This document shows positions 3,560 through 39,245 of a DNA stretch of 64,000 nucleotides, one piece after another. The translations under genes and the position numbers were made by a program. The notes beneath the pieces are model-generated. The model saw only the letters and a program-made list of their open reading frames with translations. It ran no database searches and was not told the origin of the DNA. Every line of letters starts with the position of its first letter. Position 1 is the stretch's first letter. This stretch comes from Candidatus Eiseniibacteriota bacterium (GTDB lineage: Bacteria > Eisenbacteria > RBG-16-71-46 > CAIMUX01 > JAHJDP01), in contig JAHJDP010000031.1 in the NCBI GenBank assembly GCA_018831195.1, positions 7,151-71,150 on the forward strand, written 5' to 3'.

Positions 3560-3774
3560 GCTGTCATCCCTCGAAGAGGTTTTGATCCCGATGGCGCGCA
3601 GAATTCCCAATCCGTCTTGGTGAACAGATTACACCAAGCCCAGCAGCGGGCCAAATGCCGGAGAATGGAATTTGCTGAGAAACAGCGCCGGGGGTGGAAA
3701 TGATCCTTGAGGAAGACCGTTTCATGCTCTTTATTTGCCTAGTCACGAGGATCGACCGCGGCCGGAGGATCAGG

Positions 3775-17790: not shown

Positions 17791-18069
17791 TTTCTACATT
17801 AGCCCGAGCGGCAGGTTCCCCTCAGGCATCCTACGATCAACATTCAAACCTAAAACAAGAGAGACTTTGCGGGGATAAAAGACGCTTCGTTCCTTAAACC
17901 ACCCTGTATCCCACACTCAGACCATCCCTAAATAGAGGCTTTCGTCCTCTCAGGGAATCTCCTCTGCTTGAGGCTTTCTCTCTATAGTGTTATTTTGACG
18001 TTGTCGTGGTGTGTTCCCCCCAAAAAAATGCCGATATTCTTTATGGGTGCCGGTCAATCCCATGAGGAG

Positions 18070-19290
18070 ATGGAAATATCTGTGCTGCAACAATATGATG
18101 TAAAACATCTTACACACATCATCCCCATCCGGGTGATGAGGGTGCGGGTCACCATCGGCATGTGCCTGCTTGTCATCCTCGCGTCCCTTCTTCCCCTACC
18201 CGTCTTCGCCGGCCCCTCCTGGAAGGTCCCGCGTGATTTCGTTTCCGCCTTCCTCATTGAGGCGGAAACGGGAAAAATCTTATTCGAATCGAATGCCTAT
18301 GCCTCGCGGGCGCCCGCCAGCACGACCAAACTGATGACGGCGCTCATCGTGATGGATGCGATCAAGGCGGGAAGGGTGGCGCTGACCGACTCGGTCACTA
18401 TATCCCGCCGGTCCCGGCGTATGGGCGGATCACAGGTCTATCTTACCGAGGGAGAGGTCTTCACTCTCGAAGAGCTGATGCAGGCTCTTATGATCGCATC
18501 GGCCAACGATGCCTCGGTGGCGATTGCGGAGTATGTCGGTGGCGGCTATGAGCATTTTGTCGAGATGATGAACCGCCGCGCCGATCAGATGGGCTTGAAA
18601 GAAACGATCTTTTACAATACCCACGGACTCGATGACCTCCCGTCGCAACGAAACTTGACCTGCGCCTATGATCTCGCCCAGATCGCGCGCGAGCTTGTGA
18701 AATATCCCAAGATCCTCGAATGGACCAGCACCCGCTCCGCGCCCTTTCGCAATAACCAATTCACGCTCAATGCCACAAACAAACTCCTGGGACGGATCGA
18801 AGGATTGGATGGATTGAAAACCGGCTTCACCTGGCGGGCCGGATTTTGCCTCGTGGGCACGGCGCAGCAGGATGGGATGCGTCTCATCTCCGTCATTTTG
18901 GGTTCGCAAACGAGCCGGGGCCGCTTCCTGTCGACCAAACATCTGATCGAGACAGGTTTCATGAGATTTGAGAAGGTTCTGCTGTGCCGTGAGGGCCAGT
19001 CGTTGGGACTGACCATTCCCATTTCAGGCGGTGACTCCGAACAATTGTCCCTTGTCGCCGGCCGCTCGGTCAGCATCATTCTTCCGAAGGAAGACAGATA
19101 CAGGATCCGGGAAACCTACAAGACGGTCAACGCGGCCGAAGCGCCGGTTCGAGAGGGAACACCCCTGGGATACCGGGAGGTTTGGGTGGGTGATCAGGTG
19201 TTGGCCCGGATTCCGGCTGTCGCCTCTCAATCGATATCCAGGGCGGGATTCTTCCGCCAGCTCTGGCGCGGGCTAGGACTTAGCCGCTAA
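18070..19290 (+). CDS. D-alanyl-D-alanine carboxypeptidase (PBP5/DacA family, S11 peptidase)
   Basis: SxxK (ASTTKLMT), SxN (SANDA), KTG (KTGFT) motifs; signal peptide; start uncertain (ORF track 17968; plausible starts 18070-18136). Confidence 0.8.
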   Translation: MEISVLQQYDVKHLTHIIPIRVMRVRVTIGMCLLVILASLLPLPVFAGPSWKVPRDFVSAFLIEAETGKILFESNAYASRAPASTTKLMTALIVMDAIKAGRVALTDSVTISRRSRRMGGSQVYLTEGEVFTLEELMQALMIASANDASVAIAEYVGGGYEHFVEMMNRRADQMGLKETIFYNTHGLDDLPSQRNLTCAYDLAQIARELVKYPKILEWTSTRSAPFRNNQFTLNATNKLLGRIEGLDGLKTGFTWRAGFCLVGTAQQDGMRLISVILGSQTSRGRFLSTKHLIETGFMRFEKVLLCREGQSLGLTIPISGGDSEQLSLVAGRSVSIILPKEDRYRIRETYKTVNAAEAPVREGTPLGYREVWVGDQVLARIPAVASQSISRAGFFRQLWRGLGLSR

Positions 19291-19336
19291 AACCCTCCAA
19301 CCCCTTGCGTCAAGAAGAAGTACCTGCCAAAGTTCA

Positions 19337-21076
19337 GTGAAGATTCAATGCCCGGCTTTGTCGGGGAATCCGGCGTTTTATCGAGCACATTCGAAGGGGT
19401 ATGACACCGTGAGTGCCATCCTGCTGGATCATGACCAGGTTCCAGGCCTCTCCGCCGAGGATGTCATCCTCGCGCAATGGGCCATTGAAGAAGCTCGTCG
19501 TTTGGGTGCGACCTATGCCGAGGCCCGCTGGGGATTATTGGAAACCCGCCGCATCCGCATCAAAGATCAACATGTCGCTCTTCTCGCCCACACCAATCAT
19601 CGCGGCCTCGGTCTCAGGGTATTGGTTGACGGCGCATGGGGATTTGTCTCCCACCCCCTGCAGCCCCCGACCGGGGAGACCCTCGTAACACCGGCCGGTG
19701 AGGATCTTCTGAGAGGTGAGATTCAGCCGGATGAGACCCATCCGCCCATCTCCGCGATCGATGATATCTTCGATGTCGATCTTTCCGCAAGAGGGCCGAT
19801 CCAGCCCCATACCGCCGCGTTCGCCTATGCCAGACTGAAAGGAACGATCATCAGCTTGGCGGAAGCTGCCGTCGCCATGGCGCGCGCCGCCGCCGCACAC
19901 AACCGCCGCCCGATTCAATTGGCCCCGGCCGCGCCTCAAAGCGGCGTCTGGCGCACTGATCGCGAGCGCGATCCCTTCGAAGTCCCCCTCGAAGAAATGG
20001 TCGAGTACCTGATGACCGCCGAGAAAGTGTCGCGGCAAGCTGAAAAAGATCTTGTTTCCACAGAGACATGGCTGACGGCCTGGCGGAAAGCCCATTGGCT
20101 TTGTACAAGCGAGGGAACTCTTATCCTTCAAGAGATTCTTGAGTGCGGCGGCGGTTTGAAATGCCTCGCTCATACCGATGGCGTGACCCAGGAGCGCACC
20201 TACCCCGGCTTGAGGGGATGCGATTGTGAAACCGGCGGGTATGAGAGGCTTCTTGCACACGAGCTTCAAAAAAACGCGCCCAGGGTCGCCGCGGAGGCGG
20301 TCGCTCTGACCACGGCGCCTCCCTGCCCATCTAAAGTCAGCGATCTTGTCATCGATGGATCGCTCGCCGCCATACAGATCCATGAGACGATCGGCCACGC
20401 GGTGGAGCTGGATCGCGTCTTTGGCAGCGAGGAAAGCCTGGCCGGCGGCAGTCATCTCACCCCCGACAAACTCGACTGGTTCCGCTTCGGCTCTGATCTG
20501 ATTAATGTCTCGGCCGATGCCACGGCCGCACTGGGCTTGGGGAGCTTCGGTTACGATGATGAGGGAACACCGGCCCAGCGGGTTCCCATCATAAAGAACG
20601 GCGTCTTCAGCGGGTATTTAACAAATCGCGAAACGGCCGGCAAATTGGGGATTTTAAGCGGCGGTGCCGCCAGGGCGCAGGACTGGAGCCATATGCCGTT
20701 AATTCGTATGACAAATGTCAACCTGGCGCCCGGCGGTTGGACTTTTGATAAACTCATCGAAGACACGGAAAATGGTTTTTATTTTGAGACCTCGAAGAAT
20801 CCCAGTATTGATCATCTTCGCTTGAACTTCTTCGTCGCCGCGGAGATGGCTTGGGAAATACGGGATGGCAAGAAGATCCGGATGTACAGGGATCCGGCCT
20901 ACGGAGGAATCTCGTATCAGCTCTGGCGCGCTTGCGATGCGATCACAGATTACCGCCATTGGCGGATATGGGGCATCCCCAACTGCGGGAAGGGAGATCC
21001 CAAACAGATCGGCCATGTCGGACATGGGGCTTCGCCCCTGAGAATGCGAAATGTCCGGATCGGATCGCGATCATGA
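19337..21076 (+). CDS. TldD-family metallopeptidase
   Basis: HETIGHAVELD (HExxxH), YDDEGTP, PmbA_TldD fold features; true start probably internal (GTG ~19409). Confidence 0.8.
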   Translation: MKIQCPALSGNPAFYRAHSKGYDTVSAILLDHDQVPGLSAEDVILAQWAIEEARRLGATYAEARWGLLETRRIRIKDQHVALLAHTNHRGLGLRVLVDGAWGFVSHPLQPPTGETLVTPAGEDLLRGEIQPDETHPPISAIDDIFDVDLSARGPIQPHTAAFAYARLKGTIISLAEAAVAMARAAAAHNRRPIQLAPAAPQSGVWRTDRERDPFEVPLEEMVEYLMTAEKVSRQAEKDLVSTETWLTAWRKAHWLCTSEGTLILQEILECGGGLKCLAHTDGVTQERTYPGLRGCDCETGGYERLLAHELQKNAPRVAAEAVALTTAPPCPSKVSDLVIDGSLAAIQIHETIGHAVELDRVFGSEESLAGGSHLTPDKLDWFRFGSDLINVSADATAALGLGSFGYDDEGTPAQRVPIIKNGVFSGYLTNRETAGKLGILSGGAARAQDWSHMPLIRMTNVNLAPGGWTFDKLIEDTENGFYFETSKNPSIDHLRLNFFVAAEMAWEIRDGKKIRMYRDPAYGGISYQLWRACDAITDYRHWRIWGIPNCGKGDPKQIGHVGHGASPLRMRNVRIGSRS

Positions 21077-22437
21077 GATGCATCTGGCCGACACCTGAAA
21101 TCGAAGACATCATCGTTGATGTTATGGATGACGCGGTGGAGCATGTCCCGGGAGACGGCTTGCATCTCCTTTTAGAAGCGACACGGGAGCGCGTTTTTAG
21201 ACTGGCTGATGGAGAGATCCACCAAACCGCAGACAGAAAAGACCTCCGTCTTATCGTGACGGCTATCGAAGGTAACCGGCAAGGGGTTGTCTCCACCGGA
21301 CTTCTCGTTCCCGACGAGATACACACCGCCATAGGCCGGGCGCGGCGGATCTGCAGTTTTCTTCCGCCCGATCCGCAATTCCCCGGTCTGCCGGGTCCGG
21401 TGAAGGCAGCGCAGGACGGCGGCGATCATCATGACCGGGAGACGGCCAATGCCACATCCGAGGAGCTGGCGCGTATCGCATCCGTCGGGCTTGAAACGGC
21501 GCGCGCCGAGGGCGCCATCGCGGCCGGAGCGCTGAGTGTGCGGGAGAATCTGTTCCTGGCTCGCGACAGCGAGGGGCTGGCTTCGCGCAGCATTTCTACA
21601 AAAGCTGATCTATCCCTTACCTGTTTCGCGGGATCGGGCGGCAAGCAGAGCTCGGGTTACTCAAATCGATTCGCCTGGAGACTATCCGATCTGAATCCCG
21701 AAGAAACGGCGATCAAGGCCGCGCGCAAAGCAAAATACGGCATTGTCCGCCGTTCTCTGAATCCGGGTTTTTATACGGCGATTCTCGGACCGACCGCGGT
21801 CGCGGATTTGGTCGGTATTCTGGCGCACATCGGATTCGGCGCAACAGAAGTGAACGAATACCGCAGTTTCGCCAGCGGGCGGTTGGGCGAAAAAGTTTTG
21901 GATGAAAAGTTCACTCTCCGGGATGACCCGCAGCATCCCCAGACCGCGGCGCCGGGAATCGACTATGAGGGTATTCCCACAAAACCCCTGACTTTTGTGG
22001 AGAGGGGTGTGCTGAAAGACATCGCCACGAATCACCGCACGGCCCATCTCGGCAATAAACCATCCAATGGGCGGGGCGCCGATCCTTTATCAAGGTGGAC
22101 CGATATCTTGATGAATCATCTTGTCATGGAGCCGGGCGCCACATCGCGCGAAAAGATGATACGTTCGGTTCATAGGGGCATCCTGATCAACCGCCTCTGG
22201 TACGCCAGAGTTGTACAACCGCGCGAAACGCGGATCACGGCGCTGACACGGAACGGACTGCTGACGATCGACGGAGGAGAAATCACGGGCGCGGCCGGCA
22301 ACTTCAGGACAAACCTATCGCTCGTGGAACTCCTCTCGCATCTCAAGGCCGTATCCGACACAACAGTGCCGACCCATGGCGTTGTTGCGCCGACTCTTCT
22401 TGTTGAAGGATTCCCACTGACCAGTCCCAGCGCTTAG
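21073..22437 (+). CDS. TldE/PmbA-family peptidase partner
   Basis: ATGA overlap with tldD stop; TldD/PmbA family similarity without HExxxH. Confidence 0.7.
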   Translation: MRCIWPTPEIEDIIVDVMDDAVEHVPGDGLHLLLEATRERVFRLADGEIHQTADRKDLRLIVTAIEGNRQGVVSTGLLVPDEIHTAIGRARRICSFLPPDPQFPGLPGPVKAAQDGGDHHDRETANATSEELARIASVGLETARAEGAIAAGALSVRENLFLARDSEGLASRSISTKADLSLTCFAGSGGKQSSGYSNRFAWRLSDLNPEETAIKAARKAKYGIVRRSLNPGFYTAILGPTAVADLVGILAHIGFGATEVNEYRSFASGRLGEKVLDEKFTLRDDPQHPQTAAPGIDYEGIPTKPLTFVERGVLKDIATNHRTAHLGNKPSNGRGADPLSRWTDILMNHLVMEPGATSREKMIRSVHRGILINRLWYARVVQPRETRITALTRNGLLTIDGGEITGAAGNFRTNLSLVELLSHLKAVSDTTVPTHGVVAPTLLVEGFPLTSPSA

Positions 22438-22461
22438 GTGGAGCAGGGAGGTATTCTTTAG

Positions 22462-25029
22462 ATGTCATTCAGATTCTGGGTGCCGATCTTTACGGCGGTT
22501 TTTTCAATTTTCGCCGTATCGTTCATACCCGGTTCCGCCCACGCCGTCTCCAAGCGCCCGCTGGCCGTTCATGACGTCGTGATGATGGCCACTCCTCAGC
22601 AGGCCGACTTCAGTCCGGATGGCGATTGGATCGCCTATGTCCTGCGCACCGCCGACCTGGATAAGAACCAGATGCGGCGGCAAATTTATCTTGCCTCGCG
22701 CCGCGGCGGCAAGCCGCGCGCTGTCACCCGCGGGAATGAATCGGCTCAGCGTCCCGACTGGTCACCGAATGGCAGCTATCTCGCTTTCCTCAGGAAACCT
22801 GATGCACCCGGCGCGAAGGAAACAGATGACGAACAGCTCTGGCTCTTGCCAATGGGCGGTGGAGAGCCCTTCCCTTTGACGAACCTCGGCGGTGGTATTT
22901 TAGACTATGCCTGGACACCGGATGGACGGTCGATCCTCGTCCTGACCCCCGAGGATCAGGCGGCCGGAATGAAGGAATATGCCGGGAATCGGGAGGAGAA
23001 AGGTTATGACGCTGACGCGAAGGACAAAAATATTCCTCGGAAGATCCTTTGGCGTTATCCCGTTCCCGAGGGAGATCCCAAGCTTCTCTTCCGCGGTGAT
23101 CGCGGGATGGAGGAATTCGAGCTAAGCCCCGACGGGCAATGGGTCGCCTATTTGTCAAACCTCACCGGTGTTCTCGCGGATGAGAACGAGACGGAAATTT
23201 ATCTCCTGGGGCTCAACGAAGAACGCATCCGCCGGCTCACACATCGCTACGGCGCCGAAGGCAACATTCATTGGACTCACGATGGAGAGGGTGTCATTTG
23301 CACCGCCGTGAAGACCGACTCGCTCATGTTTTCCCAGATGGAAGTGTATGTCCTTCCCGTGGGCAGCCGGCGCCTGGACAATCGAGATCATGTTCCTTTC
23401 TCGCGGTGGATCCCCTGGACAAATCTCCTCGATCGCGAGGTCGACGCTTTTCTATGGCCCGCCAAGAGCGGCGCCGGCTTTGTCATCGCGCAGGATCATT
23501 TTTCCGCGCGGCTGGCGACACTCGACGGCGAGGGTACGGCGCGCTGGCTGACCGATCCGCGTAAAGTTATACAATATGGCGCCGTCTCAGACGACGGGAA
23601 ATATCTTGCCCTCACCATCGAGACGCCTGAATCGCCCGCGCAACTTGTTCTCGTAAACTACGAAGGGCGGATTGCGCGGGTGCTGGATGAACCGAACAAA
23701 GACCGCTTTAAAGATATTCAACCGGCGTGGCAGAGCGTTTATAGCTGGAACAGTTTCGACGGCCAGGAAATCGAGGGCCTGCTCATTCAACCCTGGTGGA
23801 CCGAGGTTCTTCCGCCCTATCCGCTGATTGTAGATATCCACGGCGGTCCGTCTTGGCATGTGACGCATGAGCTAAGCCAGACGATTCAGACCTGGGCCGG
23901 CGAAGGGTATCTGGTGCTGGCGCCCAATTACAGGGGAAGCACAGGGTATGGAAATGAATTCTCCATTTCAAACGTGCGCGATCTCGGCGGCGGCGATTAT
24001 CGGGATATCATGGCCGGTGTGGATCAGTTGATTGCGGACGGCATCGCCGATCCCTACCGAATCGCCATTATGGGCGGGTCGTATGGCGGCTACATGGCGA
24101 ATTGGGCTATTACACAATCGAGCCGGTTCGCCGCGGCGGTATCTGAGTACGGCATTTTCAGCCTGATCACTGACTTCTCGATGAGCGATTATCCCATGTG
24201 GGAGAAATCATATCTCCGAAAATATTATTGGGATGATCTCGGCGCCTACCTGCAAATGTCGCCGGTTTTCCACGCCGAAAATGTCACAACCCCCGTATTG
24301 ATCATGCATGGCGAAGCAGACAATAACACCTTCATCTCCAACTCGATGGAAATGTATAGGATGCTTCGAACGCTCGGCAAGACCGTCGAGTTCCATCAAT
24401 TCCCTCGTGAAGGGCACGGCTTTGCCGAACCGGCGCACAAACTCGAGGAAATGCGCCTCGCCCGCTCTTGGTTCGACCGTTTCGTGACGCATGGAGCCAT
24501 CTGGCCCCCTGAATACAACGAGCTTCGAAAAACACCGCGCGAGCATCTTCCGCCGTTTCTCGCCGATCAGATCCGGTCAATCGATGATCTCCCCCGCCTC
24601 TACCGGCCGGGCGATACGCTGAGCGTCAATCGCGGGACCCCATTACAAGCGATCGTGGGTGAGATCAGCACACCGAGCAGCTACGGCGATGAGAGGCCGG
24701 GTGGACGTTTTGTAGAAGTAGAGATACTTCTCTCCCATCAAGGCTGGGGGATGCGTTCGTATCCGCTGCAAATGAATGATGTCGTGATGCTGGGGCCCTC
24801 CGGCCGGAATCATCCTCCGGCGGGAATCCCCTTTTCCGCTCATGGCCAGACAACATTAATCCACGGCGAAAATCTCATGGTGCGCCTATCACCCGAACCG
24901 ACGGGAATAGGTCAATGGCAGCCGGTTCGCGTCACCTTCGATATTCCAAGAGATCTACATCATGTGCCCCTCGTGATCGGTCCCTTCCCACCGGTTCTGA
25001 TCAATGTGGGTGAATCAGTGGCTAATTAA
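22462..25029 (+). CDS. S9-family serine peptidase (prolyl oligopeptidase/acylaminoacyl peptidase type) with N-terminal beta-propeller and ~170-aa extra C-terminal domain
   Basis: Signal peptide; WSPDG propeller repeats; catalytic triad context GGSYGGYM (Ser), HGEADNN (Asp), EGHGF (His); ORF continues ~170 aa past the His. Confidence 0.85.
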   Translation: MSFRFWVPIFTAVFSIFAVSFIPGSAHAVSKRPLAVHDVVMMATPQQADFSPDGDWIAYVLRTADLDKNQMRRQIYLASRRGGKPRAVTRGNESAQRPDWSPNGSYLAFLRKPDAPGAKETDDEQLWLLPMGGGEPFPLTNLGGGILDYAWTPDGRSILVLTPEDQAAGMKEYAGNREEKGYDADAKDKNIPRKILWRYPVPEGDPKLLFRGDRGMEEFELSPDGQWVAYLSNLTGVLADENETEIYLLGLNEERIRRLTHRYGAEGNIHWTHDGEGVICTAVKTDSLMFSQMEVYVLPVGSRRLDNRDHVPFSRWIPWTNLLDREVDAFLWPAKSGAGFVIAQDHFSARLATLDGEGTARWLTDPRKVIQYGAVSDDGKYLALTIETPESPAQLVLVNYEGRIARVLDEPNKDRFKDIQPAWQSVYSWNSFDGQEIEGLLIQPWWTEVLPPYPLIVDIHGGPSWHVTHELSQTIQTWAGEGYLVLAPNYRGSTGYGNEFSISNVRDLGGGDYRDIMAGVDQLIADGIADPYRIAIMGGSYGGYMANWAITQSSRFAAAVSEYGIFSLITDFSMSDYPMWEKSYLRKYYWDDLGAYLQMSPVFHAENVTTPVLIMHGEADNNTFISNSMEMYRMLRTLGKTVEFHQFPREGHGFAEPAHKLEEMRLARSWFDRFVTHGAIWPPEYNELRKTPREHLPPFLADQIRSIDDLPRLYRPGDTLSVNRGTPLQAIVGEISTPSSYGDERPGGRFVEVEILLSHQGWGMRSYPLQMNDVVMLGPSGRNHPPAGIPFSAHGQTTLIHGENLMVRLSPEPTGIGQWQPVRVTFDIPRDLHHVPLVIGPFPPVLINVGESVAN

Positions 25030-25050
25030 CAACATGGAAGGCGGATTAAC

Positions 25051-26688
25051 GTGCCGAACCCGGAAATCTTCACTCGGGAAGAACGCCGGCTGTTGGAGCC
25101 CTACTTCACAAATCTCGACGAACGGGTCTTTGCTTTAACAAATCTGCCCGAGGTGGTCAAAGGCGCCCTCTTCGCACGCTACTCCCGATCACCGAAATCC
25201 CTCCGCCGCCTTTTTCTTGATGAATTCATTGATACCGATCACGGCGCCGCGTTCGATACCGGCGCCGGCCTCCGCCGCGCCCGGGAACTGTACGACCGCG
25301 TCTTTATCGAGTTCGGGGATGATTCGGTCGCTCAACTCGGCGGCGCGCATCTCGCCGTCGAGGGCGCATCGAATATCCTCACCAAGATTCTCGAGCGCGG
25401 CCGCCTCATGTCTTACCTTGAACAATCAACCCGCTATATCCCCTTCACCAGCAGGCTGGACGGACGCTGGCGTTATTGCATTCCGCCGGAACTCGAGAAT
25501 CATCCCGCGCGGAAGGTCTATATCGAAGTGTTGGATGAGATCTTCGAGACTTATACAGAGTGGGTAAAGCCTTTGCAGGAGCTTCTTTCAACCCGGTTTC
25601 CGCAGGGAACGGAATCGGTTGCGGTCCATCATCGAACACTTCAAGCAAAGGCATTGGATATTCTGAGGGGATTGTTGCCGGCGGCGACAACGTCCAATTT
25701 GGGACTCTTCGGCTCCGGGCAGGCCTTTGAATCCCTTCTATTGCGAATGCGGGCTCATCCATCAGCGGAAGCGAGAGAAACAGCACGCTTAATGCTCCAT
25801 GAATTACGAAAGGTGATTCCAGAGTTTCTTAAACGCGTGGACCAGGAAGAGCGGGGTGTTGTATGGAGCCGCTATCTATCGGAAACCAGGGAAGAAACAG
25901 AACGGATGGCGTCTGAGTTTTTTGGAGAGGATTCCCCGTTATCGAAGGAGGAAAAGGGACCTGCGGAAAAATCGCAGACGGTGCAGCTGACCGATTTTGA
26001 TCCTGAGGGTGAAATCAAAGTCATCGCCGCGGCGCTTTACTCCACTTCAAATCTGCCGGATGGGGAATTGCTGGCGCGCGTGCGCCGGATGCCTCACGAA
26101 GACCGAGTGCGGGTTCTCAAGGCCTATGTCGGATCCCGTCGCAATCGGCGGCACAGGCCGGGGCGCGCCTTTGAGCGCACATCGTATCGCTTCGATATCC
26201 TCTCCGATTACGGCGCTTTCCGCGATCTGCAACGCCATCGGATCCTCAGCATTGAATGGCAGCAGCTGACGACCCATCATGGTTATCATTTTCCGCAGGA
26301 ATTGGAAGCCTCCCCACTGGGCGACCGCTGGCATCAGATCATGACCCGCTCTTCGGAGCTGTTCCATCGATTGGCGGTTGAGGGTTTGGAGCGTGTCGCT
26401 TCGTATGCCGTCTGCATGGCTTACCGTATCCGCTACTACATGGAAATGAACGCCCGTGAGGCAATGCATCTGATCGAATTGCGGACGGCCCCGCAGGGAC
26501 ACACCTCCTATCGCCTTATCGGGCAGGAGATGCACCGATTAATCGCTGAGACGGCCGGTCATCGAGCGATCGCCGAGGCGATCTCTTTCGCCGATCACAC
26601 ATCCGGTGAAGAAGGTCGTTTGAGCGCGGAGATGTCATTGGAAACGCGTCGGACGGATCATGGAAGCATATTGAGGCTCGAAGAATAG
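25051..26688 (+). CDS. ThyX-like (Thy1 family, FAD-dependent thymidylate synthase fold) protein with tandem duplicated domain
   Basis: GTG start with RBS GGAAGG; first half carries RGRLMSYLEQSTRY (matches ThyX RHRxxSxxEQSxRY except H->G), second half carries QRHRILSIEWQQ (RHRxxS but lacking ExSxRY). Confidence 0.5.
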   Translation: MPNPEIFTREERRLLEPYFTNLDERVFALTNLPEVVKGALFARYSRSPKSLRRLFLDEFIDTDHGAAFDTGAGLRRARELYDRVFIEFGDDSVAQLGGAHLAVEGASNILTKILERGRLMSYLEQSTRYIPFTSRLDGRWRYCIPPELENHPARKVYIEVLDEIFETYTEWVKPLQELLSTRFPQGTESVAVHHRTLQAKALDILRGLLPAATTSNLGLFGSGQAFESLLLRMRAHPSAEARETARLMLHELRKVIPEFLKRVDQEERGVVWSRYLSETREETERMASEFFGEDSPLSKEEKGPAEKSQTVQLTDFDPEGEIKVIAAALYSTSNLPDGELLARVRRMPHEDRVRVLKAYVGSRRNRRHRPGRAFERTSYRFDILSDYGAFRDLQRHRILSIEWQQLTTHHGYHFPQELEASPLGDRWHQIMTRSSELFHRLAVEGLERVASYAVCMAYRIRYYMEMNAREAMHLIELRTAPQGHTSYRLIGQEMHRLIAETAGHRAIAEAISFADHTSGEEGRLSAEMSLETRRTDHGSILRLEE

Positions 26689-28694: not shown

Positions 28695-28904
28695 GACAGG
28701 CCGGTGTCCACATCGGAGTTAAAACAGTGATGTTCATTAAATCGGTGACGCGGGAGGGGATCTGTAATTTTCGTTGCGGGTGTGGGCCGGAGAGAAACTA
28801 TCTCTATATCGCCCTTTCAGACCCCCTTGGGCCCCCTTGGAAGACTGGGATTTCGACCCAAATTCGTGTGGATCCCCAATCCCCTGAGGCCCTACGATCA
28901 GGAT

Positions 28905-29567
28905 ATGACCCTCGGTGACACGACATATTCGAGACCAAAGATCGCCGTGCTGATCCTTTGCGCCGGCGCCTCACGGCGCATGCGATTTCCAAAATTTCTT
29001 TTGGAGATTCAGCGAAAATCAGCGGTGTCTCTGATTTCCTCCATCGCATTGGAACAGCTGGAGGGACCAGTGGCGATTGTGGCGCGGCCGGAGGAGCGAG
29101 AGATTATTGAAACATTATCCGGATTGCCGGATTCTCAACGCTTGTACATCATCGAAAACTCAGATCCGGATGCGGGCCGGACGGGTTCGATCCAGGCGGG
29201 ATTGCAACACTTTTCAAGACTCAGTAGTGAATCACCATCCGGCTGTTTAATTTGGCCGGTTGATCTTCCGCTGGTTCGCCCGCAAACTGTGCGGCGCCTG
29301 GGTTATAAGTTGGAATGGTCCGGTCCCTCGGCGGTCATCATCCCGACTTGGGAGAGCCGAGGTGGACATCCCGTCGCCGTCGGCAAGAACCATTGGCCCG
29401 CTTTGTTTGAGATGGGCCCGGATACTCCTCTCCGGGAACTTTGGAAAGATCCAAAATGCTGTATTGAAATGTTGCCGGTTGAAGATCCTGGTATCCGGGT
29501 TGATCTCAACACGCCGGAAGAGGCGGAGCGCTGGCTAGGGGCTCCCGCACGACCTTGGTCGCCCTAA
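28905..29567 (+). CDS. MobA-like NTP transferase (probable molybdenum cofactor cytidylyltransferase MocA)
   Basis: AVLILCAGASRRM (LAGGxSxRMG motif), GSIQAGL, WPVDLPLV; adjacent to XdhC. Confidence 0.7.
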   Translation: MTLGDTTYSRPKIAVLILCAGASRRMRFPKFLLEIQRKSAVSLISSIALEQLEGPVAIVARPEEREIIETLSGLPDSQRLYIIENSDPDAGRTGSIQAGLQHFSRLSSESPSGCLIWPVDLPLVRPQTVRRLGYKLEWSGPSAVIIPTWESRGGHPVAVGKNHWPALFEMGPDTPLRELWKDPKCCIEMLPVEDPGIRVDLNTPEEAERWLGAPARPWSP

Positions 29568-29654
29568 TCTTATGCACTCGAGTTTCATACGCTTGAGTCG
29601 TTACACTCTTGGGCTATTATGAACCTGGTTTCATGAAACCGAAAAGATGGAGAT

Positions 29655-30422
29655 ATGATTGAAATCTTGAACAAAATGATCGAACTCCTGCAGCGTGGGG
29701 AAACCTTTGCTGTGGCCTCGGTGCTCCGCGCTAAAGGATCCCCGGGACGGATCGGTCACAAAATGATAGTTCGATTCGATGGCTCCACGATCGGGACCGT
29801 CGGGGGCGGTTCAGTGGAAGAGCAAGTTAAAGCCGACGCCATGAATGCGCTGAAAAAGGGCGAAGGGATTTTCAAAGCCTACGACCTCTCTCAAAAATCA
29901 CCCACCGGCATCGACAGTCTATGCGGAGGAAGACAAGACATGGCCATCGAGATTGTTCCCGGAAGGCCTCATCTTTTAATCATGGGCGCGGGTCATATGG
30001 GCCGCAGTATCAGCGACCTCTGCCGGCTTCTCGATTATGGCTACTCGGTCGTAGACGATCGAGCGGAGTTGACGAATCGAGATGACTGGGATAACGCGCA
30101 GGGTGTTTTTTGTTCTGATCCGGCTGAGTTCTTGCGTACCGCCGATGTGACACCCTATACGCATTTGCTGATCATGAATTATACACATCAGCTGGACGGC
30201 GAGTCGTTGCAAGCGGCGCTGGAGCGTTTCCCCGGCATTATCGGCATGATCGGCTCCACTCGGAAGCGGGACGCCATTTACAAGTCACTATCGGATAAAT
30301 TGCGGGAAAAAACCTCATCCGTCAGATGCCCGGTCGGGTTGACATCGATCCCGGCAAGATCCCCCGCCGAGATCGCCGTGGCGATTCTTGGTGAGATCAT
30401 AGGAGACCGGTACGGAGCCTAA
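29655..30422 (+). CDS. XdhC/CoxI-family molybdoenzyme maturation factor
   Basis: XdhC_CoxI N-domain (FAVASVLRAKGSPGRIGHKMIV) plus Rossmann-like XdhC_C domain (LLIMGAGHMG). Confidence 0.8.
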   Translation: MIEILNKMIELLQRGETFAVASVLRAKGSPGRIGHKMIVRFDGSTIGTVGGGSVEEQVKADAMNALKKGEGIFKAYDLSQKSPTGIDSLCGGRQDMAIEIVPGRPHLLIMGAGHMGRSISDLCRLLDYGYSVVDDRAELTNRDDWDNAQGVFCSDPAEFLRTADVTPYTHLLIMNYTHQLDGESLQAALERFPGIIGMIGSTRKRDAIYKSLSDKLREKTSSVRCPVGLTSIPARSPAEIAVAILGEIIGDRYGA

Positions 30423-32424: not shown

Positions 32425-32949
32425 ATGGCTCTTGAGAATGAAAACGCCGTTATCCGGCGCTGCCAACGCGGCGAAATCGACGCCTTTGAGACCATCTATC
32501 ATTATTACGAGGAACAACTTATGGCGGTGGCGTTCCGCCTGCTGAGCAACCGCGAGGAGGCCGAAGAGGCCCTTCATGATGCGATGTTCAAGGCCTACCG
32601 CAAAATAGGACAATTCCGCCATCAGGCCTCGTTCTCAAGCTGGCTGCACCGGATCGTCATCAATATCTGCTATGACCGGTTGCGCAAAATGAAACGCCGC
32701 GGGGCACAGAAGCCCTTGGAGGAGCTCGGGGAGATCGGCAGGGAGGACAATATGGAACTGCGGCGGCGCCTGCATGAAGCGATTGCCGGGTTGCCTCCAA
32801 AGATGAAGACCTGCTTTGTGCTGTTCGTGCAGCAGGGGTACAAGCAACAGGAGATCGCCGACATGCTGGATATCAAGTTGGGAACGGTCAAGCTCCATGT
32901 TTACGAAGCCCGGACCCGTCTGCGCGAGACTCTGGCCGATCAAATGTGA
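32425..32949 (+). CDS. ECF (sigma-70 group 4) RNA polymerase sigma factor
   Basis: Region 2 (SWLHRIVINICYDRLRK) and region 4 (QEIADMLDIKLGTVKLHVYEARTRLRE). Confidence 0.9.
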   Translation: MALENENAVIRRCQRGEIDAFETIYHYYEEQLMAVAFRLLSNREEAEEALHDAMFKAYRKIGQFRHQASFSSWLHRIVINICYDRLRKMKRRGAQKPLEELGEIGREDNMELRRRLHEAIAGLPPKMKTCFVLFVQQGYKQQEIADMLDIKLGTVKLHVYEARTRLRETLADQM

Positions 32950-33040
32950 AAGGGGTCGGCTGAAGTCTATGATGGAAGTATCTGAAAGAAGAGTCCGACA
33001 AAGATGATTCATAGAAGTGTTTCATAGAGGTGTCCACCCG

Positions 33041-33724
33041 ATGAATTGCGACAAGTATCGACAGCGCGAGATTGGTGAAATCACACCGGACGAATTCGCC
33101 CGACACGCAGAGACGTGTCGGATCTGCGGAGACGCCCTCCGCATCGATCGCCGTATCGAATCCGAGGCGGCCGGCCTCCCGATTCCGGATCCCACTCCCG
33201 GCCTCTGGTGGAAAATCGCCGTCGATCTCGAAAGGGAACAGATCCGCGACCGATTGCTTTGGCGTGATCTGTCGGCTCATCTCAAGAAATGGATCCGTCC
33301 ACAACACCATCCGGTGTTGAAAATCGCCGCTGTATCCGTTCTTGCGATCGGCCTGGCTTTCATCTTATACCCGCGCTCCTCTCCAACCATCAGGAGAAAT
33401 CTGTTAACAGAACAGGCGCTCGATCGGGCTGAAGCGCTTGAAAACGAATATGTACAAGCGATCGAGGAACTGGAGTTGCTTGCCCAACCGCTGATCGCCG
33501 ACATTGATACCGAGTTGCGGCTGCACTATCGTTCACGCCTCGAGACGATCGATACGCAAATTAGACGCTGCCGCGCCGCGCTGGAAAGCGATCGCGGCAA
33601 CGCTCATATTCGGCGCTATCTGCTCACCGCCTATCAGGATAAACAGGAAACAATAGCCAACCTTATTAGACTATCCGAACAATCAAAGAAATCTCCAAGG
33701 ATGAGAAAGGAGCTTGAGATATGA
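33041..33724 (+). CDS. Anti-sigma factor (zinc-finger zf-HC2 type, single TM)
   Basis: CDKYRQREIGE...HAETCRICGD N-terminal HxxxCxxC motif, central TM helix; RBS GAGGTG. Confidence 0.8.
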   Translation: MNCDKYRQREIGEITPDEFARHAETCRICGDALRIDRRIESEAAGLPIPDPTPGLWWKIAVDLEREQIRDRLLWRDLSAHLKKWIRPQHHPVLKIAAVSVLAIGLAFILYPRSSPTIRRNLLTEQALDRAEALENEYVQAIEELELLAQPLIADIDTELRLHYRSRLETIDTQIRRCRAALESDRGNAHIRRYLLTAYQDKQETIANLIRLSEQSKKSPRMRKELEI

Positions 33725-35307
33725 CAACTCGAACACGACCGACGATGGGATTTCTCGCACAGTCTATTATAGCATCCGCCTTTTTAATCGCGTCGCCATT
33801 TCTCGTCGCATCCCCGGCATCAGCCGGCAAAACCGAGAATTTTACATGGAGTACCGAGATGATCAGCGATGAGGTTGTGCCGACGCATACACTTATTATA
33901 TCCAGTCCCGGTGGATCCATTACGATCGAACCGAGCGATCAGAACATTATCTCATTGAAAGCGACACTCGAGATGGTCAATGTCGACAAAAGAAATATGG
34001 ACCGCTTTGCACAAGAAACGAAAGTCACTCTGGAACCGCGTAAGGACAGCTATCAGGTTATTGTTAAAACTCCCGAATCGATTGGGATAACATTGAAAAA
34101 TCTACCCAGAATCGTCAGGGGTTGTATTGAAGAACTCAAAGGCGGCGGGTGGAACTATTTTCCGTCGGCGGAAGTCGATTTGGAAATAAAAATTCCTCGT
34201 GACATGCCGGCGCAAATCGAAACCAGCTACGGCAACGTCTCGGTGACCGGTATCAGCGGAGAGATTGAGATTGTTAATGAAAGCGGCGAGGTCACGCTTC
34301 AAGACATTGGGGGCGGCGCCAAGATACGAAACAGCTATGGCAAAGTCAGCGTCTTACACTGCTCCGGCGATATCGCCGTCATTAATAGCAGCGGCGAAGT
34401 CGATATCGAGGGCGCCGGCGGCACCGTCGATGTTCAATCCTCCTATGAAGACATCTCCGTTCGGCAGGTCTCAGGAGCCGTCATCCTTCGCAATGAGAGC
34501 GGCCGGGTGACAGCGATCGATATCGGTGGTGATGTGCAAATTGAGAGTTCCTATGAGCCGGTGCGGGTCGCGCACGTAACCGGCGGGGCGACGATCACTT
34601 GCGAGAGCGGCGCGATCAACGTTCTGGACATCGGCGGCGACGCCCACATCAAAACCTCCTATGAACCGGTCGAGCTGAGCGATGTCAAAGGAAGCGCCGG
34701 GATCGACGCCTCGAATTCCGAGATCTCGGTCGAGGGGGTTTTGGGATCCGTCGATATTAAGTCCAGCTATGAGCGCGTTCACGTTTTGAAGGTCGGCGGA
34801 TATTGCACTGTCCGAACCGAATCAGCGCAAGTGATATTGGGTGAAATCACGGGAGAGGTGAACGTCCGATCGAGCTACGAATCTATCGAAGCCCGCAATA
34901 TCGGCGGCGCCCTCTCGATCGACGGAGATTCCAGCCCCGTCATCGTCGATAGGGTCGACGGACCCCTCAAGATCCAGAACAGCTATGAATACGTCATCGT
35001 GAAGGGCACGAAATCCTCGGTGCAGATCACCGGGAGCAGCAGCCCGGTTGAGATTTCTGAGATCCGCGCCTTCCCCAGCGATGGCCTGATCGATGTCGCC
35101 ACATCATATGAACGAATCACCCTCTACCTCCCCGCGGATCCTTCGGCCCGCATCCGGGCTGCGACCAGCGACGGCGAGATCGAATCCGACTTCCCCATGA
35201 CCTACCAGAAGAATGGGGAGTGGAGAGCGGAGATGGAGCTGGGTTCGGGAGGGTGTGAGATCACCCTTGAGACCTCAGGCGACATCTATATAAAGAAGGC
35301 TCATTGA
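33721..35307 (+). CDS. DUF4097-type repeat protein (putative beta-helical adhesin-like) co-encoded with sigma/anti-sigma
   Basis: ATGA overlap with anti-sigma; signal peptide; ~15 tandem ~19-aa repeats (SSYExVxVxxVxGxxxIxxESGxVxVxDIGG). Confidence 0.75.
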   Translation: MTTRTRPTMGFLAQSIIASAFLIASPFLVASPASAGKTENFTWSTEMISDEVVPTHTLIISSPGGSITIEPSDQNIISLKATLEMVNVDKRNMDRFAQETKVTLEPRKDSYQVIVKTPESIGITLKNLPRIVRGCIEELKGGGWNYFPSAEVDLEIKIPRDMPAQIETSYGNVSVTGISGEIEIVNESGEVTLQDIGGGAKIRNSYGKVSVLHCSGDIAVINSSGEVDIEGAGGTVDVQSSYEDISVRQVSGAVILRNESGRVTAIDIGGDVQIESSYEPVRVAHVTGGATITCESGAINVLDIGGDAHIKTSYEPVELSDVKGSAGIDASNSEISVEGVLGSVDIKSSYERVHVLKVGGYCTVRTESAQVILGEITGEVNVRSSYESIEARNIGGALSIDGDSSPVIVDRVDGPLKIQNSYEYVIVKGTKSSVQITGSSSPVEISEIRAFPSDGLIDVATSYERITLYLPADPSARIRAATSDGEIESDFPMTYQKNGEWRAEMELGSGGCEITLETSGDIYIKKAH

Positions 35308-38066: not shown

Positions 38067-39245
38067 TTATTTCTCTGTAATATAAATATTTCCGTTTGTT
38101 GTGCGAATCTCCACGGGAATTTTCCCCCCGCGAATGTCTCCGGTTCCATATAAATACTTCTTCGGGCTGCCCTCCGATGTATCCCAATCCCGACTGCCTT
38201 CCGTTTCAATATCAAGTTCTGTGACGAATTGAAAATCCTGACTGCTGTTGCGTGTAAAGGCAATTCTGAGATCGAGGTCCATGGAAAAGCCTTTTGGAAC
38301 GACCAATCTAATATCGCCATACCCGGAAGCCAGTCTGACACCTTTCCCTTTTCCGTCACCCTCTCCGGTAATCGTGACGTCGATGTCCCCTGCCCCCGTA
38401 CCGGCCGTCACTGAACCGCCTTCCAACTCGATTTCAATATCACCGCCGCCCGTTTTGGCATGAACGAATTTCGCCGCATTCTCTATATGAATATCACCGC
38501 CACCGGTCGTGACATCGGCCCCTTCCGGCGCCTCATCGACATTAATTTCTCCTCCTGCGGTCAAAATCAAAATGGTTTCCGGATCATAATCGTCTGCCGA
38601 ACCCCCACCGGGCCCTCGTGAATGCCCGGTACGATCGCGCACATTGCGATATTGGACATTCCCACCGCCGGATGTGGCCTTCAGATCTCCAATAACATTT
38701 TCGACAAGCACCGGGCCGCCGCCCGTCGTGATTTTTCCGTCCATTTCGCAATCGATGACTTCGATTTCGCCGCCGCCGCTGGTCAAATGCGCCTCGCCTT
38801 TACATCTCTTTATTGAAATGCTCCCACCCGCAGTTCTCCCGGAAAAGCGTCCTTCAAGATTGATCAACTCCAATCCGCCGCCATTCGATCGGAATTCGAT
38901 ATCACACATCCTTGGGACTTTAACTCTGAAATGTAACGAACTCGTTTGACGATGCCTGCCCTTCACCCACTCGGCAACTACCTCGCAGCCATCTTGATCT
39001 TCTTCAATCGAAATGTTATGATCCTCCACATCGCCGCTATTGTCGTACCAGGCAATGCGGATCACTGATTTGTCCCAGCCCTCAGCGAGTACGGATCCGC
39101 CCTCATTTATATCGAGCCTGAGCAACTGACCCGGTTTAAAGACCAGCTCTTCCACCTTCTCGTCCTGCCCGGAGGCCATACCCGTTATAAACAAAAGGCT
39201 TATTGAAACCAGAGTAACCCAAAGATTTTCGCGAGCGGTAAGCAT
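38067..39245 (-). CDS. DUF4097-type repeat protein (GGG-motif beta-helix repeats)
   Basis: Strong RBS AAGGAGGG; signal peptide; repeated TSGGGEIEV / TTGGGPVLV / ATSGGGNVQY / KTGGGDIEI units. Confidence 0.75.
   Translation of the reverse strand: MLTARENLWVTLVSISLLFITGMASGQDEKVEELVFKPGQLLRLDINEGGSVLAEGWDKSVIRIAWYDNSGDVEDHNISIEEDQDGCEVVAEWVKGRHRQTSSLHFRVKVPRMCDIEFRSNGGGLELINLEGRFSGRTAGGSISIKRCKGEAHLTSGGGEIEVIDCEMDGKITTGGGPVLVENVIGDLKATSGGGNVQYRNVRDRTGHSRGPGGGSADDYDPETILILTAGGEINVDEAPEGADVTTGGGDIHIENAAKFVHAKTGGGDIEIELEGGSVTAGTGAGDIDVTITGEGDGKGKGVRLASGYGDIRLVVPKGFSMDLDLRIAFTRNSSQDFQFVTELDIETEGSRDWDTSEGSPKKYLYGTGDIRGGKIPVEIRTTNGNIYITEK

What the first reader, a model, noticed from the sequence alone, without database searches (positions are those of the whole stretch)
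25051..26688. Tandem-duplicated ThyX-like protein with active-site motifs split between the two halves
The 545-aa product contains two Thy1-like halves. The N-half has RGRLMSYLEQSTRY, which is the ThyX signature RHRxxSxxEQSxRY with the His replaced by Gly. The C-half has QRHRILSIEWQQ, which keeps RHRxxS but lacks the E-x-S-x-R-Y part. Canonical ThyX is a homotetramer whose active sites are assembled from several subunits. A fused pseudo-dimer with complementary degenerate motifs could form fewer, asymmetric active sites, or could have been recruited to a different flavin-dependent reaction. It sits after the TldD/PmbA/S9 peptidase cluster and is convergent with an MCP gene.
Basis: partly seen in the sequence, partly recalled or inferred. 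Interest (0 to 1): 0.55.

Follow-up and report, generated by a model that had tools for sequence, protein, structure and literature searches.

The report
Tandem two-domain flavin thymidylate synthase (ThyX)
This gene encodes a double-length version of the flavin-dependent enzyme that makes the DNA building block dTMP; each half has kept only part of the catalytic machinery, so the halves must cooperate, but the design is common in uncultured microbes and is already annotated as ThyX.

Summary
ORF 25051-26688 (+) encodes 545 aa. Each half matches Pfam Thy1/ThyX on its own (E 4.7e-20 and 4.4e-17), and both quoted motifs are at the stated places.

It is not a one-off. At least 8000 90%-identity clusters and 933 50%-identity representatives (E<=1e-30) share the same ~530-aa architecture, in at least 596 GTDB species. 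These span Acidobacteriota, Rokubacteria, Binatia, Acidimicrobiia, Chloroflexi, CPR bacteria and DPANN archaea. Sources name them FAD-dependent thymidylate synthase. The window comes from a Candidatus Eisenbacteria MAG.

In 48 diverse members the losses are complementary:
- The C-half keeps the FAD and uracil residues (R74, R78-H79-R80, N163, R165, R174 in T. maritima numbering). It has lost the active-site loop S88-R90-Y91 and R147.
- The N-half keeps S30, S88, R90, Y91 and R147. It has lost R78, H79 and mostly R165.

Distant members sit in operons dCTP deaminase-Tmk-ThyX and RNR-ThyX-SHMT.

Best reading: a genuine housekeeping dTMP synthase that acts as a homodimer (pseudo-tetramer) with two composite active sites instead of four. 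The site count is inferred, not shown. No tandem ThyX structure is in the PDB. This is an ordinary member of a large, under-described long form of a known enzyme.

The parts
25036..25041 (+). Shine-Dalgarno-like GGAAGG, 9 nt before the GTG start. It lies 7 nt after the stop codon of the upstream S9 peptidase gene.
   Evidence: sequence read directly
25051..26688 (+). Whole ORF: long-form (tandem) ThyX, 545 aa.
25123..25836 (+). N-half Thy1 domain (aa ~25-262). It keeps the folate-loop R43/S45, the active-site loop, and the R147 equivalent. It has lost R78/H79.
25315..25326 (+). G89-D90-D91-S92, the counterpart of canonical G-H53-x-T55. His is replaced by a near-invariant Asp (46/48) and Ser is kept (47/48).
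25396..25437 (+). RGRLMSYLEQSTRY (aa 116-129), a degenerate RHR followed by an intact active-site loop. Positions 116 and 117 vary in the family. R118, E124, S126, R128 and Y129 are each conserved in at least 44 of 48 members. They correspond to R80, E86, S88, R90 and Y91.
25666..25680 (+). R206-G-L-L-P210, the counterpart of the T. maritima R147 'ARxxLP' dUMP-phosphate arginine. R206, L209 and P210 are invariant in 48/48.
25837..25980 (+). Linker (aa 263-310): a long helix then a disordered stretch. It is the least conserved part of the protein (no column reaches 90%).
25981..26598 (+). C-half Thy1 domain (aa ~311-516). It keeps the FAD and uracil ligands and lacks the S88-Y91 loop and R147.
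26143..26175 (+). N365-R-R-H368-R-P-G-R372-A-F-E375, a conserved basic loop at the position of the canonical H53/T55/E58 segment. Conservation: E375 47/48, R372 46/48, H368 38/48. AF2 confidence is low here, as expected for a flexible loop.
26218..26241 (+). F390-R391-D392-L-Q-R395-H396-R397, corresponding to canonical R74-Q75-x-x-R78-H79-R80. The five residues equivalent to L87-Y91 are missing just downstream.
26449..26484 (+). N467-A-R469-E-A-M-H473-L-I-E476-L-R478, corresponding to canonical N163-x-R165...N169...R174 (FAD phosphate and uracil ligands). All are conserved.

Best explanation
The gene encodes the organism's flavin-dependent thymidylate synthase (dUMP + CH2-H4folate + NADPH -> dTMP) in a long, internally duplicated form.

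Shown:
- There are two Thy1 domains in one chain.
- The family is large and strongly conserved.
- Residue loss is complementary. The C-half retains the RHR motif, R74/Q75-like R391/D392, N163/R165 (N467/R469) and R174 (R478). In canonical ThyX these hold FAD and the uracil ring. The C-half has lost the S88-G-R90-Y91 loop and R147.
- The N-half retains that loop (S126, R128, Y129), R147 (R206) and the folate-loop serine (S45). It has lost R78 and H79.

Inferred:
- A canonical ThyX site is built from three subunits. Role A supplies RHR and R174. Role B supplies T55 and R165. Role C supplies S88, R90 and Y91.
- Two chains therefore pair into a pseudo-tetramer. Each C-half plays role A and an N-half plays role C.
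- This gives two live FAD/dUMP sites per dimer, that is one FAD per 60-kDa chain.
- The two reciprocal sites (N-half as A, C-half as C) cannot bind FAD or dUMP.
- Role B is most likely the partner chain's C-half (about 65:35 over an N-half). That assignment accounts for the conserved R469, N467, R372, H368 and E375.
For: Both halves hit PF02511 independently. The fold search returns only ThyX and PolB chains, each covering about half of the model (TMt 0.55-0.73, TMq <=0.31).

Family size and spread:
- At least 8000 clusters at ~60% identity.
- 933 50%-identity representatives at E<=1e-30, mostly 500-580 aa with full-length matches.
- At least 596 GTDB species.
- CPR and DPANN members.

Complementary conservation in 48 sequences of 33-63% identity is shown. 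[quoted passage not shown] The five-residue loop L87-Y91 is absent from the C-half profile. Role assignment of canonical residues to subunits A, B and C is taken from PMC6514825 section 3.1. H53 comes from a third monomer and pairs with Y91 (PMC11940539).

Functional context in distant members:
- dCTP deaminase-Tmk-tandem ThyX.
- Class I/II-type RNR-tandem ThyX-SHMT with overlapping stop and start codons.
- A divergent tmk neighbour in a DPANN archaeon.

Acidobacteria and Chlamydiae genomes have ThyX and no ThyA (COG table in PMC5954106). Both halves are under similar constraint and the linker is not.
Against: - No structure or oligomer model could be examined, because the tool returns no coordinates and folds no dimers. 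The two-site pseudo-tetramer is therefore inference from sequence registers.
- The NCBIfam equivalog TIGR02170 scores below its cutoff (66.5 vs 87.9).
- In the window itself the gene has no nucleotide-metabolism neighbours. The 80 closest GTDB loci show none either.
- Absence of thyA or a short thyX could be checked only in 64 kb.
- The N-half keeps some 'role A/B' residues: R118 (R80 equivalent), S92 (T55 equivalent), and K/R at positions 112 and 232. The second pair of sites may therefore not be completely inert.
Confidence: 0.7

Rival explanations
1. The degenerate second pair of sites has not simply died. It has been repurposed as a dedicated binding site for NADPH, a folate polyglutamate tail, or a regulatory nucleotide, so the enzyme would be a catalytic/regulatory pseudo-heterotetramer.
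For: Several basic residues that would line the 'dead' site stay conserved: R118 (46/48), K/R112 (41/48) and K/R232 (39/48). If role B is an N-half, R469, R372, R366 and H368 would line it too. The NADPH site of canonical ThyX is poorly defined, and NADP+ occupies the FAD site in the M. tuberculosis enzyme (PMC6514825).
Against: This is inference only, with no ligand data. The same residues can be explained by fold stability, or by role B in the live site.
Confidence: 0.15
2. The protein methylates or otherwise modifies a different nucleotide, as the ThyX-like PolB UMP C5-methylase does, rather than making dTMP for DNA.
For: PolB (4p5b) is among the structural matches (TMt 0.61). TIGR02170 scores below its cutoff. 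H53 is replaced by D90 in the N-half and P370 in the C-half.
Against: The family is near-universal across whole phyla, which is not the pattern of a secondary-metabolite enzyme. Operons with dcd, tmk, RNR and glyA point to dTMP synthesis. Phyla that carry the family have ThyX-family genes but no ThyA in the COG genome counts. No biosynthetic cluster lies around the gene.
Confidence: 0.07
3. A non-enzymatic fold relic, or a normal four-site enzyme in which both halves are fully active.
For: Neither half contains a complete contiguous ThyX motif, which fits a relic. Both halves are conserved, which fits four sites.
Against: Against a relic: every canonical ligand is retained in one half or the other at >=45/48, which indicates strong purifying selection on catalytic residues. 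Against four sites: the C-half lacks the S88-Y91 loop altogether and the N-half lacks R78 and H79.
Confidence: 0.03

Closest known systems
Canonical homotetrameric ThyX / FDTS (T. maritima TM0449, M. tuberculosis Rv2754c, H. pylori, PBCV-1 A674R; EC 2.1.1.148)
   Same: It has the same fold in both halves. The same FAD, dUMP and uracil ligands are present when the two halves are taken together. Relatives sit in the same pathway context.
   Different: It has one 545-aa chain with two diverged domains, rather than four identical ~220-250-aa subunits. No single domain carries the full RHRx7-8S motif. H53 is replaced. It is predicted to have two sites per dimer rather than four per tetramer. It falls below the TIGR02170 cutoff.
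Chlamydia trachomatis ThyX (CT632)
   Same: The enzyme is biochemically active and has been used in inhibitor screens (PMC3498832). Chlamydial ThyX is described as too divergent for the original ThyX phylogeny (PMC6171736). From my memory only, it is about 529 aa, which would make it the same long form and the characterised member of this family.
   Different: I could not retrieve its sequence or length with the tools, so membership in the tandem family is an unverified lead. If true, activity of the long form is already demonstrated, and only the structural logic remains undescribed.
PolB, the ThyX-like UMP/dUMP C5-methylase of polyoxin biosynthesis (PDB 4p5a/4p5b)
   Same: It has the ThyX fold and flavin/folate chemistry. 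It is a structural match.
   Different: PolB is single-domain and homotetrameric, and it is encoded in an antibiotic gene cluster. The window gene is tandem, phylum-wide, and linked to the dTMP pathway in relatives.
Monomeric herpesvirus dUTPase (analogy, from my own knowledge, not tested here)
   Same: It is a tandem duplication of an oligomeric nucleotide-metabolism enzyme. The catalytic motifs were then partitioned between the two copies, so that fewer composite sites remain.
   Different: It has an unrelated fold and chemistry, and it is offered only as a mechanistic parallel.

Membership tests
ThyX / flavin-dependent thymidylate synthase (PF02511, TIGR02170) | Thy1/ThyX fold | tested here: met
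   PF02511 matches each half (E 4.7e-20 and 4.4e-17). Foldseek returns only ThyX and PolB chains.
ThyX / flavin-dependent thymidylate synthase (PF02511, TIGR02170) | Contiguous ThyX motif RHRx7-8S within one domain | tested here: not met
   The N-half has [D/W/R]-x-R...S, so R78 and H79 are not conserved. The C-half has RHR, but the Ser/Arg/Tyr loop is deleted. The motif exists only in trans across the two halves.
ThyX / flavin-dependent thymidylate synthase (PF02511, TIGR02170) | Score above the NCBIfam equivalog cutoff (TIGR02170, 87.9 bits) | tested here: not met
   66.5 bits.
ThyX / flavin-dependent thymidylate synthase (PF02511, TIGR02170) | FAD ligands (R78-H79-R80, N163, R165) and uracil ligand R174 | tested here: met
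   All are present and >=43/48 conserved in the C-half: R395-H396-R397, N467, R469, R478. They are not conserved in the N-half.
ThyX / flavin-dependent thymidylate synthase (PF02511, TIGR02170) | dUMP-phosphate and active-site-loop ligands (S88, R90, Y91, R147) | tested here: met
   All are present and >=46/48 conserved in the N-half only: S126, R128, Y129, R206.
ThyX / flavin-dependent thymidylate synthase (PF02511, TIGR02170) | Homotetramer with four equivalent three-subunit sites | not testable with these tools
   No oligomer prediction or coordinates are available. The sequence pattern predicts a homodimer with two sites (inference).
ThyX / flavin-dependent thymidylate synthase (PF02511, TIGR02170) | Genomic role as dTMP synthase (pathway context; replaces ThyA/DHFR) | tested here: inconclusive
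   For relatives the feature is met, by dcd-tmk-thyX and RNR-thyX-glyA operons. For this genome only 64 kb could be checked. It holds no ThyA, DHFR, Tmk or second Thy1.
ThyX / flavin-dependent thymidylate synthase (PF02511, TIGR02170) | dUMP methylation activity with FAD, NADPH and CH2-H4folate | not testable with these tools
   This needs an experiment.
Long-form (tandem) ThyX family (unnamed; annotated 'FAD-dependent thymidylate synthase') | Full-length collinear similarity, ~500-580 aa, two Thy1 halves with the same complementary motif pattern | tested here: met
   60-64% identity over 94-100% of the length to the listed best hits among >=8000 matching clusters. There are full-length matches down to 36% identity. 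The pattern is conserved in A2.
PolB-type UMP C5-methylase | Encoded within a nucleoside-antibiotic biosynthetic cluster; single-domain tetramer | tested here: not met
   The window neighbours are peptidases, an MCP, MobA/XdhC and housekeeping genes. The architecture is tandem.

The most novel reading that the evidence does not exclude
The long-form ThyX would be an obligate 'half-of-the-sites by design' enzyme. Its two degenerate pockets keep a conserved set of basic residues (R118, K/R112, K/R232, possibly R366/R372/R469). These pockets would have become a separate NADPH, folate-tail or regulatory-nucleotide site. This would separate, in space, the reductive and methyl-transfer half-reactions that share one pocket in canonical ThyX.
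Probability: 0.12. Interest if true: 0.6.

Novelty: new member of a known kind. Interest (0 to 1): 0.33.

Why it matters
ThyX is an antibacterial target, and its three-subunit active site has been hard to dissect because every mutation hits all four sites at once. A natural fusion in which the 'FAD/uracil' and 'active-site-loop' contributions sit in different, independently mutable domains would be a convenient system for that. It would also show how an oligomeric enzyme sheds redundant sites after duplication.

The long form appears to be the only Thy1-family enzyme in very large uncultured groups (Acidobacteriota, Rokubacteria, Binatia, Acidimicrobiia, CPR, DPANN). It scores below the TIGR02170 cutoff, and no structure exists. 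For this particular window, however, the gene is simply the Eisenbacteria copy of that family.

Tried and rejected
- Profile-profile comparison of the halves using only close homologues was not significant. It needed the diverse alignment.
- phmmer of the C-half alone against the PDB gave only a spurious low-complexity tau hit. The profile search was needed.
- I tried to show that Chlamydia ThyX is the tandem form. I used eight full-text searches, look-ups of Griffin 2005, Koehn 2012 and Leduc 2004 by DOI (none held), two cluster look-ups and a homology search from a distant AT-rich member (which turned out to be DPANN). None gave the chlamydial sequence or length, so this stays a memory-based lead.
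- No paper in the library mentions a tandem, pseudo-dimeric or two-domain ThyX.
- Neighbour clustering of 80 GTDB loci found only lineage-specific synteny and no nucleotide-metabolism partner.
- Half-length representatives (P0227, P0231), which might have been split two-gene versions, lie on ~1-kb low-coverage contigs. They are probably fragments.
- Predicted model coordinates are not exposed. I therefore could not test which canonical interface the intrachain N-C packing mimics.

Full report
**1. What is there**

The ORF 25051..26688 on the + strand (GTG start, 545 aa) is real. A GGAAGG box lies 9 nt upstream of the start, and the stop codon of the preceding S9-peptidase gene ends 22 nt before it. 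The predicted N-terminus aligns with homologues.

Pfam Thy1 (PF02511) matches the whole protein at E 4.1e-38 with two stretches. When the protein is cut in two, each piece matches on its own:
- aa 75-258, E 4.7e-20.
- about aa 317-501, E 4.4e-17.

The neighbourhood is as described: a PBP5-like S11 carboxypeptidase, two TldD/PmbA proteins and an S9 peptidase lie upstream on the same strand, and a convergent Cache/HAMP chemoreceptor lies downstream.

**2. It is a family, not an oddity**

- A word-indexed search found at least 8000 90%-identity clusters. The best 120 are 525-562 aa, 59-64% identical and cover 94-100% of the query. Where a source names them, they are 'FAD-dependent thymidylate synthase' or 'thymidylate synthase ThyX', from Rokubacteria, Acidobacteriota, Methylomirabilota, Binatia and Eisenbacteria MAGs.
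- An exhaustive HMMER scan of 50%-identity representatives gave 4531 hits at E<=1e-3 and 933 at E<=1e-30. The top 150 are mostly single full-length matches of 500-580 aa, down to 36% identity.
The best 80 are Vicinamibacterales/Acidobacteriota, Rokubacteria, Binatia, Acidimicrobiia, Dehalococcoidia, Dormibacterota and Myxococcota.
- More distant members are labelled Woesebacteria and Microgenomates (CPR), Chloroflexi, and Woesearchaeota, Nanoarchaeota and Aenigmarchaeota (DPANN).
- The window itself comes from a Candidatus Eisenbacteria MAG. Its GlmS is 100% identical to an NCBI MAG protein of that name.

**3. The duplication is old, and no structure of the tandem form exists**

The halves are barely recognisable as relatives. 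hhalign was not significant with a shallow profile. With a 48-sequence profile it gave E 1.7e-5, 190 aligned columns and 15% identity, in register.

Against PDB sequences, only the N-half hits M. tuberculosis and Corynebacterium ThyX by phmmer (E 4.5e-6). The C-half needs a profile to reach T. maritima ThyX (E 6.7e-8).

The AlphaFold2 model has pLDDT 76.8 and pTM 0.80. It matches only ThyX and PolB chains of 210-260 residues. Each covers about half of the model (TMt 0.55-0.73, TMq <=0.31). No solved structure of a two-domain ThyX is in the library.

**4. Residue mapping**

I used the profile alignments to T. maritima (Tm) and M. tuberculosis ThyX and a 48-member alignment spanning 33-63% identity (A2). 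Counts below are out of 48.

C-half, retained:

| Tm residue | C-half residue | Count |
|---|---|---|
| R74 | R391 | 43 |
| Q75 position | D392 | 47 |
| R78 | R395 | 47 |
| H79 | H396 | 46 |
| R80 | R397 | 45 |
| E58 | E375 | 47 |
| N163 | N467 | 43 |
| R165 | R469 | 47 |
| N169 position | H473 | 39 |
| R174 | R478 | 47 |

C-half, lost: the five residues equivalent to L87-S88-G89-R90-Y91 are simply absent. The R147 position is Q/P/R/S.

N-half, retained:

| Tm residue | N-half residue | Count |
|---|---|---|
| S30 | S45 | 46 |
| T55 | S92 | 47 |
| R80 | R118 | 46 |
| E86 | E124 | 44 |
| S88 | S126 | 47 |
| R90 | R128 | 46 |
| Y91 | Y129 | 46 |
| R147 | R206 | 48 |

N-half, lost or weakened:
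- R78 is D/W/R.
- H79 is G/S/A and others.
- R165 is Q in 29 and R in 17.
- N163 is N/S/T.
- H53 is replaced by a near-invariant Asp (D90, 46 of 48).

Both halves are under comparable constraint: 32 of 238 columns in the N-half and 21 of 206 in the C-half are >=90% conserved. The 48-residue linker has none.

**5. How it most likely works**

In canonical ThyX each of the four sites is built from three subunits. In M. tuberculosis numbering (PMC6514825 section 3.1):
- Subunit A gives RHR 95-97 and R199, which bind the FAD phosphates and ribityl, the isoalloxazine and the uracil.
- Subunit B gives S71 and R190, which bind FAD.
- Subunit C gives R87, S105, R107 and the lid Y108, which bind dUMP.

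In T. maritima, H53 comes from a third monomer and pairs with Y91 of the active-site loop (PMC11940539).

I overlay the conservation pattern on this scheme as follows:
- Role A can be played only by a C-half.
- Role C can be played only by an N-half.
- The reciprocal arrangement (N-half as A, C-half as C) lacks R78/H79 and the entire Ser-Arg-Tyr loop.

Since three domains are needed per site, a single chain is not enough. The simplest assembly is a homodimer that reproduces the 222 tetramer. It would have two live composite sites and two vestigial ones, and one FAD per 60-kDa chain.

Role B is ambiguous. S92 (T55 equivalent) is conserved in the N-half, and R469 (R165 equivalent) is conserved in the C-half. 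I favour the partner chain's C-half (about 65:35). That choice places nearly all invariant C-half residues (R469, N467, R372, H368, E375) in the live site and leaves fewer conserved residues unexplained.

All of this section is inference from registers. Coordinates are not exposed and dimers cannot be folded with the tools available here.

**6. Is it really a thymidylate synthase?**

In the window there is no informative neighbour. The 64 kb holds ordinary chromosomal genes: cysteine synthase-like PALP, GlmS, ExbBD, peptidases, an MCP, MobA/XdhC, AhpC, an ECF sigma, ThiL/E/D and MetE. There is no ThyA, DHFR, Tmk, Dcd or second Thy1 gene. The 80 closest GTDB loci likewise show only lineage-specific synteny.

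Distant members are more informative:
- A 37%-identical member lies in a dCTP deaminase-thymidylate kinase-ThyX block inserted between ribosomal protein genes L1 and L10.
- A 38%-identical member lies in a ribonucleotide reductase-ThyX-serine hydroxymethyltransferase operon with overlapping stop and start codons.
- A DPANN member is divergently paired with tmk.

These are the enzymes that supply dUMP, regenerate CH2-H4folate and consume dTMP. In addition, the COG-based table in PMC5954106 lists 6 of 6 Acidobacteria and 6 of 6 Chlamydiae genomes with ThyX and none with ThyA. Pfam Thy1 and ThyA/DHFR are strongly anti-correlated across genomes (PMC6822775).

A change of reaction (PolB-like) or a dead relic is therefore unlikely.

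**7. Comparison with what is known**

By fold and collective ligand set this is a ThyX. Three formal family criteria are not met by the polypeptide as such:
- There is no contiguous RHRx7-8S motif in either domain.
- The score is below the TIGR02170 cutoff (66.5 vs 87.9).
- A dimer-of-pseudo-dimers is predicted rather than a homotetramer.

It is best filed as a member of an unnamed long-form subfamily of ThyX.

C. trachomatis ThyX has been purified and assayed (PMC3498832). Chlamydial ThyX is described as too divergent for the original phylogeny (PMC6171736). From memory it is about 529 aa and hence probably this same long form, but I could not verify that here.

I found no paper in the searchable library that describes a tandem or pseudo-dimeric ThyX, or the complementary motif loss.

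**8. Verdict**

- The gene is an ordinary member of a very large family that public sources already annotate.
- The under-described aspect is the structural logic of the long form, which is testable with a dimer model, FAD stoichiometry and paired mutants.
- Interest is modest, about 0.33.

Noticed in passing
window 6934-8778 (GlmS), and the window as a whole: GlmS is 100% identical to a protein of an NCBI 'Candidatus Eisenbacteria bacterium' MAG, with the next hits at 79-83% also labelled Eisenbacteria. The window is therefore an Eisenbacteria (Eiseniibacteriota) chromosome fragment. The exact ThyX protein is on record only from Logan assemblies (SRR2544004, SRR2540949).
   Followed up: partly
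L084-L086, 3396-6599: In a small-genome organism, a dCTP deaminase-thymidylate kinase-tandem ThyX block is inserted inside the conserved SecE-NusG-L11-L1 / L10-L7/L12 ribosomal gene cluster.
   Followed up: no
L087/L088, 1916-6954: An ATP-cone ribonucleotide reductase, a tandem ThyX and SHMT form a tight operon with overlapping stop and start codons, making a compact dNTP/dTMP module.
   Followed up: no
L089/L090, 1-9584: A 37%-identical tandem ThyX sits in a same-strand block with RecA, an N6/N4 DNA methyltransferase, OMP decarboxylase, metallophosphatases and many small ORFs. The block looks phage- or mobile-element-like.
   Followed up: no
window 17968-25029: A same-strand run of exported or proteolytic genes lies directly upstream of thyX: a PBP5-like S11 D-Ala-D-Ala carboxypeptidase, two TldD/PmbA metallopeptidase homologues, and an 855-aa S9 peptidase with PD40/Tricorn-like N-terminal repeats and a signal-peptide-like start. 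The first three are also adjacent in contig L001. No link to ThyX was found.
   Followed up: partly
window 28782-30422: A MobA-like nucleotidyltransferase and an XdhC/CoxI-type accessory protein (molybdenum cofactor maturation) lie here, with no xanthine or CO dehydrogenase subunits among the neighbouring ORFs that were scanned.
   Followed up: no
window 32425-35307 and 38067-39245: An ECF sigma factor is followed by an unannotated 235-aa ORF and a 528-aa DUF4097 'toastrack' protein. A second DUF4097 protein lies 3 kb away. The 38-40 kb bin has an unusually strong negative GC skew (-0.22).
   Followed up: no
window 3694-5493: A 599-aa ORF has only a weak, partial phosphoglucose isomerase match (E 1.9e-15, profile positions 97-308 of 486). 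It may be an atypical or bifunctional PGI-like protein.
   Followed up: no
window protein aa 89-92 and aa 365-372: Two of the most conserved segments of the family, GDDS in the N-half and NRRH[KR]PGR in the C-half, are exactly the segments that AlphaFold2 models with pLDDT <50. This suggests ligand- or partner-dependent loops. An acidic-basic pairing between them is possible but untested.
   Followed up: no
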